The position numbers are program-made. This document shows positions 15,001 through 18,000 of a stretch of 64,000 nucleotides of DNA, in pieces. This stretch comes from Escherichia coli O157:H7 (GTDB taxonomy: Bacteria; Pseudomonadota; Gammaproteobacteria; Enterobacterales; Enterobacteriaceae): NCBI RefSeq assembly GCF_013167455.1, contig NZ_CP038328.1; one strand, given 5' to 3'. The number at the start of each line of letters is the position of its first letter. Position 1 is the first letter of the stretch.

Positions 15001-18000
15001 GAGATGCTGTCGGCGATTATGCAGGAGCTGGGCTATGTGGGCGTGATGGCGATGGAGTGTTTTGTCACCCCGCAAGGTCTGCTGATCAACGAACTGGCAC
15101 CGCGTGTGCATAACAGCGGTCACTGGACACAAAACGGTGCCAGCATCAGCCAGTTTGAGCTACATCTGCGGGCGATTACCGATCTGCCGTTACCGCAACC
15201 AGTGGTGAATAATCCGTCGGTGATGATCAATCTGATTGGTAGCGATGTGAATTATGACTGGCTGAAACTGCCGCTGGTGCATCTGCACTGGTACGACAAA
15301 GAAGTCCGTCCGGGCCGTAAAGTGGGGCATCTGAATTTGACCGACAGCGACACATCGCGTCTGTCCGCGACGCTGGAAGCCTTGATCCCGCTGCTGCCGC
15401 CGGAATATGCCAGCGGCGTGATGTGGGCGCAGAGTAAGTTCTGTTAACCTGGTGCTCATTTGATTGCCGGATGCGGCGTGAACGCCTTATCCGGCCTACA
15501 CCGATCCGGTACCCATTGTAGGCCTGATAAGACGCGTCAAGCGTCGCATCAGGCATGGTGCGCCGATTGCCGGATGCTCTCATCACTACAGCGAAATACA
15601 GGTCCCCGCTTCGCCCGCCAGCGTCTCTTCAATTCGCGATAACGCCCCAATCCACGCGGGTTTACCACGGCTTCTGACATAACCACTCACCGCCGTTACC
15701 TTCGGCCCCATCGAACCATCGGCTTTGGCAAATGGCGCTAACTCATCCGGTGTGGCATGGCGAATGGCACGTTGCTGCGGCATTCCCCAGTTTTCATATA
15801 CCGCATCAGCATCGGTGAGGATCACCAGTCCATCGGCGTTAATTTGCTCGGCGAGCAACGCAGCGGCGAGATCTTTATCAATCACTGCTTCACTCCCTGC
15901 TCCGTCATCCGTCACAGGCACACCGCCGCCGCCACTGCAAATCACCACATGCCCCTCTTTGAGCAACAACTCGATGGCTTCGCTGTCGAGAATTTTACGC
16001 GGTTGCGGAGACGCCACCACCCGGCGCAAATATTTACCATCACGTTTCATCTGCCAGCCGTAAGCCGCTTCCAGTGCCTCTTGTTCTTCTGGCTGATAAA
16101 CCGGACCAATAAATTTCTCTGGCTGCAAAAACGCCGGATCATCAGGCGAAACTTCAATGCGCGTCCGCACCGTCGTGACAGGCGGCATCTGCGGCTGTGC
16201 GCTCAAACTCTGCGCCAGCATATAGCCAATCATCCCCTGACTTTCTGCCACCAGCACATCCAGCGGATACGGTTCTACCTCTTTCCACGCCAGATTCTGC
16301 AATGCCAGCAGCCCCACCTGCGGCCCGTTGCCGTGAACAATCGCCAGCCGATAAGAACGGGCCAGGCGCGCCAGCGCGGGTACAGCACTGGCGATATTGC
16401 GATATTGATTTTCTGCCGTCAGCGCCTCACCGCGCTGGAGTAAGGCGTTGCCCCCAAGAGCTACAACCAGTGTTTTCATGGTTTTCCTTGTAATAATTGT
16501 TGGCCAAGCCAGAACCCCAGCAGTGTATCTGCCCCTGACGTATGCCCCAGCGCCAGCAGCGAATCAATCGCAACAGCGGTACGTTTCGGGCAACTCAGAG
16601 CATGAACAAAGTGCAGGAGTGGCGAGGCGAAATATCCTTGCGCGGCATAACGTAAATAACTGACGCTCACCGCTGTGGTAACGAGTTGCAGATTGTCGGA
16701 ACAGGCAAAAAACGGACGACCGGAGCGCGCATCTAAAGCACCATAATACCAGGCCGCCAGCAGCATTCCGCTCAGCGTGTCATCATGACTTGGCGTTAAT
16801 CCGGGGCCTTTACCCAGCCAGTGCCGCCAGTCGGTCTTAACGCCATTGAGCGCGGCCTGAAAACAGTGACGAAACTGGCGTAACTCAGCAGGCAGCGGAT
16901 CGCTTGCCGCCAACGCCAGTGGCCCGAAAAGCCCGGTTTCCTCCGCGCGTTGCATCCATGCAGCTGCAAGTGGTTGAGGATGCGCAGGCGGCGTAATACG
17001 CAGCAAACAATAACGCTGTGGCTGTTTAACCGTGAAACGCCCGAGGCGAATCCCTTGAGCCACAACCTGTGGTCGTTCATTGCCGCATAATCCACCGCAT
17101 AACGCATCGAATTGCGCACGGCGAAGCACCCATCCTCCGGGGCCGAAACCACTACCCTGACGATGCAGCGTTAACAGTTCGCCGCTTTCCGTCATCAGGT
17201 TAATCGCCCGCCGCCACACTCCCGCTAACCGCCAGGACTGGCGATAATTCGGTGCGCTACTACTGGCAAGCAGAGGATGGATGATCGTCATTACGCGTTC
17301 CTCAACCAATCCCCATGCTTTCAGCCAGTGCTTCCAGCGCCTGTTCAAAGCACGCCAGCGGTGCCCGCACGGTGCCTGCGCCAATCTGCCCGATCCCCGC
17401 CTCTTTATGGGCGATACCGGTATTGATGAGTGGCGTAATGCCGGTTTCTACCACGCGACGAATGTCCAGTCCCAGGCACGCGCCCTGAAAATCCCAGCTT
17501 GGGATCTGCAACTGCATATTGCGTTCAAGGTAAATTTCCGCCATCTCTTCAGATACCGCCCTGGCCGCTTCCATGCCACTCGCACCGACAAAGCGCGTTA
17601 CGCCAGGCGCTGCGATCATTGCCGCACCTCCGATACCAAAGGTTTCGGTAATCGCGCTATCGCCCATATCCGGGTTCGCCTGCTCCTGCGAGAAGCCGGT
17701 GAAAAACAGACCTTGCGGAGTGTTTACAGGCGCAGTAAACCAGCGTTCGCCCAGCCCGCTTACCCGAATCCCGAACATATTGCCGTTGCGGGTCATTGCC
17801 GTGACGATGCTGCCTGCGCGGATCATCGCGCCAGCATCCATCGCCGCCTTGCAGTAAGCCATCGCGAGGTTGAGGAAGAACTGATCGGTCACGCTGAGGA
17901 AATCCATCACTTCCGCGATGTGCTGTTTATCATGATCGAGGCGAGCAATTTGTGGGGCCAGCGCACGCATTAACAGTGCTGAGGAAGCAATATTGCGTTG

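What the first reader, a model, noticed from the sequence alone, without database searches (positions are those of the whole stretch)
15455..15590. REP/BIME clusters at two convergent gene junctions
Canonical REP palindromes occur after purK (15455-15590) and after ybbJ (51232-51360). The second cluster forms the left boundary of the AT-rich accessory module, so REP-associated recombination or REP-targeting insertion is a possible acquisition route.
Basis: partly seen in the sequence, partly recalled or inferred. Interest (0 to 1): 0.2.

Follow-up and report, generated by a model that had tools for sequence, protein, structure and literature searches.

The report
Ordinary REP/BIME-2 repeats at gene ends
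Both sites are textbook E. coli REP palindromes (BIME-2 arrays) in the gaps between convergent genes, and the one after ybbJ lies at the left tip of an old Escherichia gene island but does not appear to be how that island got in.

Summary
The window is E. coli O157:H7. The purK/ybcF gap has a perfect y REP, a z2 REP and a y stump. After ybbJ there are z2, y, a degenerate z2 and a y stump, starting at 51223 rather than 51232, so the first unit contains the ybbJ stop codon. A third REP site (z1, 23735-23763, allE/glxK) was missed. Shuffled sequence gives no such matches.

The purK array is a copy-number-variable BIME-2: gaps run from 138 bp here to 194 bp in K-12 and 533 bp elsewhere, with a 100-bp period.

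The acquisition idea mostly fails its own test. About 3,200 of 5,426 E. coli genomes, and 49 of 79 other enterobacterial species, have ybbJ and cueR stop codons abutting or overlapping, with no REP to target. No REP-only junction was found. The island is a 4.6-kb ancestral block, present in E. whittamii, Escherichia sp. E1V33 and about 150 E. coli, that has decayed by nested deletions; O157 lost one gene. It has no transposase, integrase or target duplication. The empty/occupied boundary lies in ybbJ codon 144 and at the cueR stop. Only one internal deletion ends 8 nt from a REP.

The likely role is a bidirectional 3'-UTR hairpin acting as terminator and stabiliser. Already known; low interest.

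The parts
15466..15499 (+). y-type REP (palindromic unit), CTAC at its 3' end, 18 nt downstream of the purK stop (15445-15447)
   Evidence: 0 mismatches to the y consensus. Its arms pair (I2). It forms a hairpin in the folds.
15500..15517 (.). 18-nt tail-to-tail linker between the y and z2 units
   Evidence: Read directly from the sequence and seen in the alignment with K-12.
15518..15554 (-). z2-type REP in inverted orientation, completing one BIME-2 unit
   Evidence: Matches the degenerate full-length REP pattern with 0 mismatches, against 0 matches in 100 shuffles. Also found.
15567..15589 (+). Stump of a further y REP (TTGCCGGATGC head plus CTAC). The CTAC overlaps the ybcF stop codon (15586-15588). 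This is the scar of lost repeat units.
   Evidence: The alignment with K-12 and strain MS20657 shows that whole units are missing at exactly this point.
14380..15447 (+). purK, the upstream convergent gene
   Evidence: ORF; annotation.
15586..16479 (-). ybcF (carbamate kinase), the convergent partner of purK
   Evidence: ORF; annotation.
51223..51256 (+). z2-type REP with a degenerate tail (CATGCCC instead of CAGGCCTAC). Its first 6 nt supply the last codon (GCC) and the stop (TGA, 51226-51228) of ybbJ.
   Evidence: The same unit, with an intact CTAC, is present in other island-bearing strains and Escherichia species.
51276..51309 (-). y-type REP in inverted orientation
   Evidence: 1 mismatch to the consensus. 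The exact 14-nt REP tail was found. It lies within the Rfam naRNA4 hit at 51279-51356.
51324..51359 (+). Degenerate z2-type REP (5 edits from consensus)
   Evidence: The better-preserved homologue in strains AR_0015 and 'capsule spontaneous mutant 21a' is shown.
51363..51378 (-). Truncated y REP (GTAGGCCG...), the right end of the array
   Evidence: Read from the sequence. The same remnant is present in AR_0015.
51201..51228 (+). Last 9 codons of ybbJ plus the stop codon. This tail is specific to island-bearing genomes. It differs at 13 of 28 nt from the K-12 tail, whereas the preceding 100 bp differ at only 1 nt.
   Evidence: The K-12 tail is closer to the Salmonella and Citrobacter tails.
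51229..53862 (.). O157 form of the ybbJ|cueR island (2,634 bp, 44.5% GC). It comprises the REP array plus four genes. It is absent from K-12-type genomes.
51407..51769 (-). 120-aa hypothetical gene, the convergent partner of ybbJ across the REP array
   Evidence: No Pfam, NCBIfam or PHROG family matched.
52136..53152 (+). 338-aa YadA-family trimeric autotransporter adhesin
   Evidence: Pfam YadA_anchor, E = 1.1e-11. RefSeq annotation.
53237..53859 (+). 140-aa lipoprotein and an overlapping 67-aa small membrane protein
53863..54270 (-). cueR. Its stop codon is the right boundary of the island.
23735..23763 (+). Isolated z1-type REP in the allE/glxK convergent gap. This third REP site is not part of the finding.
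   Evidence: 1 mismatch to the z1 consensus.

Best explanation
Both sites are members of the resident E. coli REP (palindromic unit) family. They are arranged as BIME-2-type arrays: y and z2 units alternate in orientation with short linkers. They occupy the 3' intergenic space of convergent gene pairs (purK/ybcF, and ybbJ/120-aa gene).

How they most likely work (inferred from the literature, not tested here):
- They are transcribed into the 3' UTRs of both convergent mRNAs.
- They fold into stable hairpins that act as partial, Rho-assisted terminators and as blocks to 3'-exonucleases.
- Neither gap has a canonical intrinsic terminator that could do this job instead.
- At ybbJ the first hairpin starts inside the stop codon. 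In island-bearing strains it may therefore also lower YbbJ translation.

As DNA, the arrays expand and contract by whole units. This gives strain-to-strain copy-number differences.

The ybbJ array belongs to the island haplotype. It is the leftmost part of an old Escherichia-genus island (4.6 kb when complete) that sits in a junction which is otherwise zero-length. O157 carries a deletion derivative of that island. Presence and absence alleles look as if they are exchanged by homologous recombination in ybbJ and cueR.

The REPs most likely colonised the new intergenic space. They are GC-rich and of the resident family, next to AT-rich foreign cargo. They are unlikely to have served as the entry site.
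For: Shown directly:
- REP identity and types.
- The RNA folds are well below shuffled controls on both strands: z = -4.65 and -4.19 for cluster 1, and z = -3.10 and -3.54 for cluster 2.
- No intrinsic-terminator-like site was found in either gap.
- The REP segments are multi-copy in every E. coli genome (versus 33).
- Copy number at purK/ybcF varies from 2 to more than 8 units, with a 100-bp period.
- K-12-type genomes have a zero-length, REP-free ybbJ|cueR junction.
- 49 of 79 species have compact junctions.
- The full A+B island is present in E. coli 33F4, Escherichia sp. E1V33 and E. whittamii, and the B gene in E. albertii. In every case a REP array of 1-6 recognisable units sits at the same left end.
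- O157 lacks positions 4024-5344 of the full island, numbered on the strain 33F4 locus L014 read ybbJ-to-cueR; this is the B gene.
- No mobility gene or terminal repeats were found.
- GC is 63.5% for the REP array and 43.3% for the cargo.

From the literature:
- The BIME-2 definition, and the variability of copy number between strains (PMC3333891).
- About 60% of E. coli REPs lie between convergent genes. About 30% of convergent gaps hold a REP. REPs have a dual terminator/stabiliser role (bioRxiv 10.64898/2026.03.23.713779).
- REPs fewer than 16 nt from a stop codon can lower translation (Liang et al. 2015, as cited in PMC12306157).
Against: - No expression data were available, so the terminator, stabiliser and translational roles are inferred by analogy.
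- The 2026 preprint itself finds no global half-life effect of terminal REPs.
- The order of events cannot be resolved from present-day genomes: REP before, together with, or after the cargo.
- The 28-nt divergent ybbJ tail is not fully explained. It differs at 13 of 28 nt from K-12 and includes synonymous changes.
- Two of the cluster-2 units are degenerate and may no longer fold or bind proteins as canonical REPs do.
Confidence: 0.85

Rival explanations
1. A REP/BIME array already sat between ybbJ and cueR. It then served as the target or recombination substrate through which the accessory module entered, by a REP-targeting IS, by RAYT/TnpA_REP strand transfer, or by REP-REP recombination.
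For: - The array is exactly at the left terminus of the island in every island-bearing genome and species examined.
- One internal indel (A module present versus absent) ends 8 nt to the right of the y REP.
- REPs are documented IS targets (PMC1525189).
- TnpA_REP cleaves and rejoins BIME DNA in vitro (PMC3333891).
Against: - About 3,200 empty E. coli junctions and 49 of 79 species have no intergenic DNA and no REP.
- No REP-only haplotype was found among 5,426 genomes.
- The right end of the island is not a REP.
- No REP is split across the island.
- There is no transposase or integrase, and no target-site duplication.
- The left boundary of divergence lies 23 bp outside the array, within ybbJ.
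Confidence: 0.1
2. The REP array was part of the imported DNA. It arrived together with the cargo and a short piece of the donor's ybbJ 3' end, by homologous recombination from a donor that already had this arrangement.
For: - There is a sharp switch from about 1% to 46% divergence at window 51200, including synonymous changes, just left of the array.
- Diversity is elevated in the cueR 3' half, which is 90-96% identical among E. coli against 97-100% for the 5' half.
- The same array position is shared by five Escherichia lineages.
Against: - y and z2 units are the resident Escherichia REP family and are GC-rich, unlike the 43% GC cargo.
- The related 4-gene cassette in a Pseudocitrobacter MAG (L092) sits elsewhere, upstream of qmcA.
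- No E. coli-type REP lies in the ybbJ-cueR interval of any non-Escherichia locus that was scanned.
- All cueR 3' alleles are Escherichia-like, at about 73-77% identity to other genera, so no cross-genus import is visible.
Confidence: 0.2
3. The arrays encode nucleoid-associated noncoding RNAs (naRNA4-like) that act with HU to organise the chromosome.
For: Rfam naRNA4 (RF02564) matches 51279-51356 at 74.7 bits, above its gathering score of 59.5. It matches cluster 1 below threshold, at 40 and 36 bits. naRNA4 was reported to condense DNA with HU (PMC4550694).
Against: The Rfam family is itself one y/z2 unit of REP325, so the hit only restates REP membership. A 2026 preprint reports that REP325/naRNA4 does not measurably compact the nucleoid and instead acts locally as a 3'-UTR element.
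Confidence: 0.03
4. The palindromes are chance GC-rich hairpins or ordinary intrinsic terminators, not members of a repeat family.
For: They lie where terminators are expected.
Against: The full REP pattern gave 0 matches in 100 shuffles. There are no T-tracts and no terminator-like sites. The units match the family consensus exactly or nearly so, and have dozens of copies per genome.
Confidence: 0.01

Closest known systems
E. coli REP / palindromic units (y, z1, z2) arranged as BIME-2 (Gilson, Bachellier, Hofnung; summarised in Ton-Hoang et al. 2012, PMC3333891)
   Same: The units are 34-37-nt imperfect palindromes with a GTAG/CTAC foot. y and z2 units alternate in orientation with short linkers. 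They are tandemly reiterated with a 100-bp period in other strains. Copy number varies between strains at the same locus. They are extragenic, at the 3' ends of genes.
   Different: Nothing essential differs. In O157 both arrays are short: one complete y/z2 pair plus a stump at purK, and three units plus a stump at ybbJ. Two ybbJ units are degenerate, and the first overlaps the last 6 nt of the ybbJ reading frame.
REP325 / naRNA4 (Rfam RF02564) in the yjdM-yjdN operon
   Same: It has the same y/z2 unit. The Rfam model matches above threshold at 51279-51356. The likely role is the same: a 3'-UTR terminator and stabiliser.
   Different: REP325 has 12 hairpins between tandem genes. Here there are 2-3 hairpins between convergent genes. 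No evidence of a processed RNA was obtained here.
REP-targeting insertion sequences (IS1397, IS621/IS110 family, ISPpu9/10; Tobes & Pareja 2006, PMC1525189)
   Same: Foreign DNA lies immediately next to a REP array.
   Different: The module has no transposase. The REP is not split by the insert. Empty sites have no REP. The insert carries an adhesin and hypothetical genes, not an IS.
REPIN/RAYT (TnpA_REP, yafM) system
   Same: Inverted y/z2 pairs are the substrates that TnpA_REP binds and cleaves in vitro. The first ybbJ unit carries a near-match (CGCC|TGAT) to the published type I cleavage site TGCC|TGAT.
   Different: No RAYT gene is adjacent to either array. No test of mobility was possible. 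The island boundary is 6 nt or more away from that site.
Strain-specific 'O-islands' of E. coli O157:H7 relative to K-12 (my own recollection of Perna et al. 2001; not checked here)
   Same: A short, AT-rich, adhesin-encoding segment is present in O157 and absent from K-12. It lacks mobility genes and sits between conserved backbone genes.
   Different: Here it is shown to be a deletion derivative of a larger island shared with other Escherichia species, not an O157-specific gain.

Membership tests
E. coli REP (palindromic unit) family | 30-40-nt imperfect palindrome able to form a stem-loop | tested here: met
   Inverted-repeat arms of 14-18 nt at 86-89% complementarity. Hairpins form in the MFE folds, with z from -3.1 to -4.65.
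E. coli REP (palindromic unit) family | Conserved GTAG/CTAC tetranucleotide at the foot of the palindrome | tested here: met
   CTAC is at 15496-15499. GTAG is at 15518-15521 and 51276-51279. It has been lost by mutation in the two z2 units of cluster 2 in O157, but is intact in the first unit in strains M1/5 (L009), 'capsule spontaneous mutant 21a' (L010), AR_0015 (L011) and in Escherichia sp. E1V33 (L016) and MOD1-EC7003 (L018).
E. coli REP (palindromic unit) family | Sequence match to the y, z1 or z2 consensus | tested here: met
   0-2 edits for the four good units and 4-5 edits for the two degenerate ones. The consensus strings were written from memory and agree with the description in PMC3333891. 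The degenerate published-style pattern matched with 0 mismatches.
E. coli REP (palindromic unit) family | High copy number, dispersed in the genome | tested here: met
   REP-containing queries hit a median of 28-38 places per genome (cap-limited). A REP-free probe hit a median of 1 place.
E. coli REP (palindromic unit) family | Extragenic, at the 3' ends of transcription units | tested here: met
   Both arrays lie between convergent stop codons. The exception is 6 nt of the first ybbJ unit, which lie inside the reading frame.
BIME-2 | Composed of y and z2 units in alternating orientation with short linkers (not z1 plus the long L linker of BIME-1) | tested here: met
   The pattern is y(+)/z2(-) at purK and z2(+)/y(-)/z2(+) at ybbJ. 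Linkers are 14-19 nt. The definition is from PMC3333891.
BIME-2 | Tandem reiteration, with copy number variable between strains at one locus | tested here: met
   The purK/ybcF gap is 138 bp in O157, 194 bp in K-12, 332 bp in MS20657 (L005) and GN4738 (L007), and 533 bp in SCAID WND1-2022 (L006), with units every 100 bp. The ybbJ array has 1-6 recognisable units across strains and species.
BIME-2 | DNA gyrase binding and cleavage | not testable with these tools
   Biochemical property. It is cited in PMC3333891 ref. 9 only.
Rfam naRNA4 (RF02564) | Score at or above the family gathering threshold | tested here: met
   74.7 bits against 59.5 at 51279-51356. Cluster 1 scores only 40 and 36 bits. 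The family is a REP325 unit, so this is REP membership and not evidence of an sRNA gene.
REP-targeted IS or transposon insertion | The insert encodes a transposase or recombinase | tested here: not met
   No Pfam, NCBIfam or PHROG recombinase family matched any island protein, including the B gene of the full island.
REP-targeted IS or transposon insertion | A REP is present at the empty site and is interrupted or flanked by the insert in occupied sites | tested here: not met
   Empty sites have 0 intergenic bases and no REP. The right end of the island is the cueR stop, not a REP.
REP-targeted IS or transposon insertion | Terminal repeats or a target-site duplication | tested here: not met
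   No shared direct or inverted k-mer of 8 nt or more at the island ends. There was only one chance-level 7-mer.

The most novel reading that the evidence does not exclude
A REP/BIME was seeded first into the zero-length ybbJ|cueR junction of an Escherichia ancestor. There it created both the intergenic space and a recombinogenic single-strand hairpin substrate, possibly processed by TnpA_REP, through which the adhesin cassette and the 407-aa gene were captured. On this reading the REP array at the island's left tip, and the deletion endpoint 8 nt from the y unit, are footprints of REP-mediated gene capture. A milder version is that the REP overlapping the ybbJ stop codon gives island-bearing strains a different, translationally damped YbbJ level from K-12-type strains.
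Probability: 0.08. Interest if true: 0.5.

Novelty: already known. Interest (0 to 1): 0.1.

Why it matters
It matters little in itself. REP/BIME elements are among the longest-known bacterial repeats, and about 30% of convergent gaps in E. coli hold one.

The useful outcome is negative and clarifying. The REP array next to the O157 adhesin module is not evidence for REP-mediated acquisition. The module is a decayed remnant of an old Escherichia-genus island sitting in a junction whose ancestral state is overlapping stop codons.

The locus could serve as a natural test case for two questions:
- Whether a REP hairpin placed 0 nt from a stop codon changes expression of the upstream gene.
- How REPs colonise newly created intergenic space.

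Tried and rejected
- I looked for curated REP features in NC_000913.3, but none are listed in this copy. REP typing therefore rests on my own fuzzy-consensus scan and on PMC3333891.
- I searched the island ends, and the ends of the A-module and B-gene indels, for target-site duplications or terminal repeats. Nothing of 8 nt or more turned up.
- I ran Pfam, NCBIfam and PHROGs on the island proteins for recombinase or transposase domains. There were none, only a YadA anchor.
- I searched 5,426 genomes for a REP-only or remnant junction like that in E. coli SCPM-O-B-8794 (L015). None covered 80% or more of the probe.
- I tested whether K-12's junction could be a simple deletion derivative of the island. 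I rejected this for three reasons. The K-12 ybbJ tail differs at synonymous sites. It is closer to the Salmonella tail, differing at 7 of 27 nt against 15 of 27 for the O157 tail (my count from the sequences). Deletion between the GCCT repeats would not reproduce it.
- I tested whether either cueR 3' allele is a cross-genus import. Neither is; all are about 73-77% identical to other genera.
- Liang et al. 2015 could not be read (PMC4427526 is not held). It is cited second-hand via PMC12306157.
- A literature search for this specific island between ybbJ and cueR found nothing relevant.
- Two tool calls failed on coordinates or frame. The Citrobacter-type insert was therefore not given domain assignments.
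Full report
**Identity of the window.** The region 50770-54270 is 100% identical to E. 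coli O157:H7 chromosomes. The region 15200-15900 is likewise 100% identical to O157:H7 strain Z866 and strain CDC#03-98. RefSeq annotation and ORF calls give the following layout:
- purK (14380-15447, +) converging on ybcF (15586-16479, -).
- qmcA-ybbJ (ybbJ 50770-51228, +).
- A 120-aa hypothetical gene (51407-51769, -).
- A YadA-family adhesin (52136-53152, +).
- A lipoprotein (53237-53659, +) and a 67-aa protein (53656-53859, +).
- cueR (53863-54270, -).

- A fuzzy scan against the y, z1 and z2 REP consensus sequences finds exactly six units in 64 kb. I wrote those consensus strings from memory; they agree with the description in Ton-Hoang et al. 2012, PMC3333891.
- The six units are:
  - y at 15466-15499 (+), 0 edits
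  - z2 at 15518-15554 (-)
  - z1 at 23735-23763 (+)
  - z2 at 51223-51256 (+)
  - y at 51276-51309 (-), 1 edit
  - a degenerate z2 at 51324-51359 (+)
- Truncated y units follow each array, at 15567-15589 and 51363-51378.
- The full degenerate REP pattern never occurred in 100 shuffles, and the 14-nt tail occurred 4 times against 0.4 expected.
- Queries containing these units hit dozens of places in every E. coli genome, while a REP-free probe from the same locus hits once.
- Three corrections to the finding. The second array starts at 51223, so the ybbJ stop codon (51226-51228) lies inside the first REP. The convergent partner of ybbJ in this strain is the 120-aa gene, not cueR. A third REP site, at the allE/glxK convergent junction, was missed.

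**Cluster 1 is an ordinary, copy-number-variable BIME-2.**
- The purK/ybcF gap is 138 bp here, 194 bp in K-12 MG1655, 332 bp in strains MS20657 and GN4738, and 533 bp in strain SCAID WND1-2022.
- In those longer arrays y and z2 units alternate every 50 bp, giving a 100-bp period.
- The three-way alignment shows that O157 simply lacks whole units at the point where its y stump sits.
- This is the behaviour described for BIME-2 in PMC3333891.

**Cluster 2 belongs to an island haplotype.**

States of the ybbJ|cueR junction among 5,426 complete E. coli genomes:
- About 3,200 have the K-12 arrangement, in which the ybbJ TAA directly abuts the cueR TCA with no intergenic base and no REP.
- 1,409 cover at least 80% of the O157 arrangement, 'module A'.
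- 966 carry a different 407-aa gene, 'B', next to cueR. It is often frameshifted or internally deleted, for example in H22 and a strain labelled ST-131.
- The totals exceed 5,426 by about 150. That implies a similar number carry both A and B, as strain 33F4 does.

Breakpoints relative to the full 33F4 island, numbered on locus L014 read ybbJ-to-cueR:
- O157 lacks 4024-5344, the B gene. The right end of this deletion is exactly at the cueR stop.
- H22 lacks 794-4096, module A. The left end is 8 nt to the right of the y REP.
- K-12 lacks 697-5339, that is the REPs plus A plus B.

So O157 carries a deletion derivative of a 4.6-kb island, not a fresh insertion.

**Polarity from other species.** I ran one scan of species-representative genomes with YbbJ as the query. 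It returned 80 loci, and cueR was found near ybbJ in 79 of them.
- In 49 of the 79 the two stop codons overlap by 4 nt, abut, or lie 5 nt or less apart. These include Enterobacter, Klebsiella, Kluyvera, Lelliottia, Trabulsiella and Salmonella arizonae.
- The compact junction is therefore widespread. The K-12 YbbJ tail (TLHIRAVSS*) resembles Salmonella (TLRVRAVSST*) far more than the O157 tail (TLIIRAVIA*) does: 7 of 27 nt differ against 15 of 27 (my count).
- The full A+B island, always with a REP array at the same left end, is present in Escherichia sp. E1V33 and E. whittamii. The B gene with REPs is present in E. albertii and Escherichia sp. MOD1-EC7003.
- Citrobacter, Phytobacter and Kosakonia carry an unrelated two-gene insert of about 2.85 kb at the same junction, without REPs.
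- The junction is thus a recurrent insertion site, and the Escherichia island is old.

**Where the boundaries fall.**
- K-12 and O157 differ at 0-2.5% through qmcA-ybbJ up to window position 51200.
- They then differ at 13 of 28 nt in the last nine ybbJ codons and the stop.
- This switch lies 23 bp to the left of the first REP.
- On the right, the boundary is the cueR stop.
- The cueR 3' half is unusually diverse within E. coli, at 90-96% identity against 97-100% for the 5' half. All alleles are nevertheless Escherichia-like.
- This pattern fits old alternative haplotypes exchanged by homologous recombination in the flanking genes.
- The origin of the divergent 28-nt tail is not resolved.

**Does the REP array explain acquisition?** Mostly not.
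- Empty sites offer no REP to target.
- No REP-only junction exists in 5,426 genomes.
- The island ends share no repeat of 8 nt or more.
- No island protein matches a recombinase family.
- The right end is not a REP.
- The array is 63.5% GC and of the resident REP family, while the cargo is 43.3% GC. This suggests the REPs colonised the new intergenic space, or were already there in the Escherichia lineage that built the island.
- The one REP-adjacent breakpoint, the left end of the A indel, is a single event within the roughly 100-180 bp between ybbJ and the next gene, most of which is REP.

**How the elements most likely work (inferred).**
- Neither gap contains an intrinsic-terminator-like site.
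- Both strands of both arrays fold well below shuffled controls.
- Published work places about 60% of E. coli REPs between convergent genes and finds a REP in about 30% of convergent gaps.
- The same work supports a local dual role as a partial Rho-dependent terminator and a block to mRNA decay, and argues against the nucleoid-organising role once proposed for REP325/naRNA4 (bioRxiv 10.64898/2026.03.23.713779; PMC4550694).
- The Rfam naRNA4 hit at 51279-51356 therefore only restates REP membership.
- REPs closer than 16 nt to a stop codon have been reported to lower translation (Liang et al. 2015, via PMC12306157).
- The ybbJ REP is at 0 nt from the stop and the purK REP is at 18 nt. Only ybbJ, and only in island-bearing strains, is a candidate for that effect.

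**Verdict.** The elements are textbook REP/BIME-2, already known and of low interest. The side result is modestly informative but not surprising: an old Escherichia island, decaying by nested deletions, in a junction that is ancestrally zero-length.

Noticed in passing
window 23664-23840: There is a third REP site, in the allE(22872-23657,+)/glxK(23885-25036,-) convergent gap. It consists of a z1 REP at 23735-23763 and a y-REP head remnant near 23818-23840, which may be a decayed BIME-1. Rfam gathering-level hits lie alongside: STnc480 at 23664-23730(-) with 85.8 bits, and ES036/CssrF at 23756-23798(-) with 38.1 bits. An intrinsic-terminator-like hairpin plus T-run sits at about 23701-23727.
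   Followed up: partly
window 53863-57601: cueR is bracketed by variable DNA on both sides. Its 5' side adjoins HlyD-type and type I secretion permease/ATPase genes (54267-57601, -). K-12-type genomes lack these and show only a 98-bp pseudogene remnant before ybaT.
   Followed up: partly
window 53863-54062 (cueR 3' half): The 3' 200 nt of cueR are only 90-96% identical among E. coli strains, against 97-100% for the 5' half. That is as diverse as between Escherichia species. No allele looks imported from another genus.
   Followed up: partly
window 51201-51228: The last nine ybbJ codons and the stop differ at 13 of 28 nt between island-bearing and empty haplotypes, including synonymous changes. 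The preceding 100 bp differ at only 1 nt. The origin of this sharp step is unexplained. It could be a co-imported donor flank, an old linked polymorphism, or the limit of homologous exchange next to the indel.
   Followed up: partly
L092 3307-5842; L071 424-3537: Relatives of the same cassette (120-aa gene, YadA-like adhesin, lipoprotein, small protein) occur in a Pseudocitrobacter MAG, and in part in Lelliottia. There the cassette lies upstream of qmcA rather than downstream of ybbJ. So it travels as a unit and stays near the qmcA-ybbJ operon.
   Followed up: no
L020-L028, L060, L065, L068, L088 (about 7457-10315 in each): Citrobacter, Phytobacter and Kosakonia species carry an unrelated insert of about 2.85 kb at the same ybbJ|cueR junction. 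It encodes an exported protein of about 715 aa and a protein of about 220 aa, both co-oriented with ybbJ, at 56-57% GC and without REPs. Domains were not assigned.
   Followed up: no
L015 7457-7570: E. coli SCPM-O-B-8794 has a remnant state: two REPs plus about 60 bp of the 3' end of the 120-aa gene, fused next to cueR. No such state was found in 5,426 complete E. coli genomes.
   Followed up: yes
window 52136-53152 versus L009, L010, L014, L016, L019: The YadA-like adhesin is hypervariable in its N-terminal passenger. Lengths are 338, 349, 415 and 579 aa, and the region upstream of and including its 5' end aligns poorly between strains. The membrane anchor and the downstream genes are conserved.
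   Followed up: no
window 2162-2235: A tRNA gene on the minus strand (Rfam tRNA, 72.1 bits) sits in an AT-richer stretch at the start of the window.
   Followed up: no
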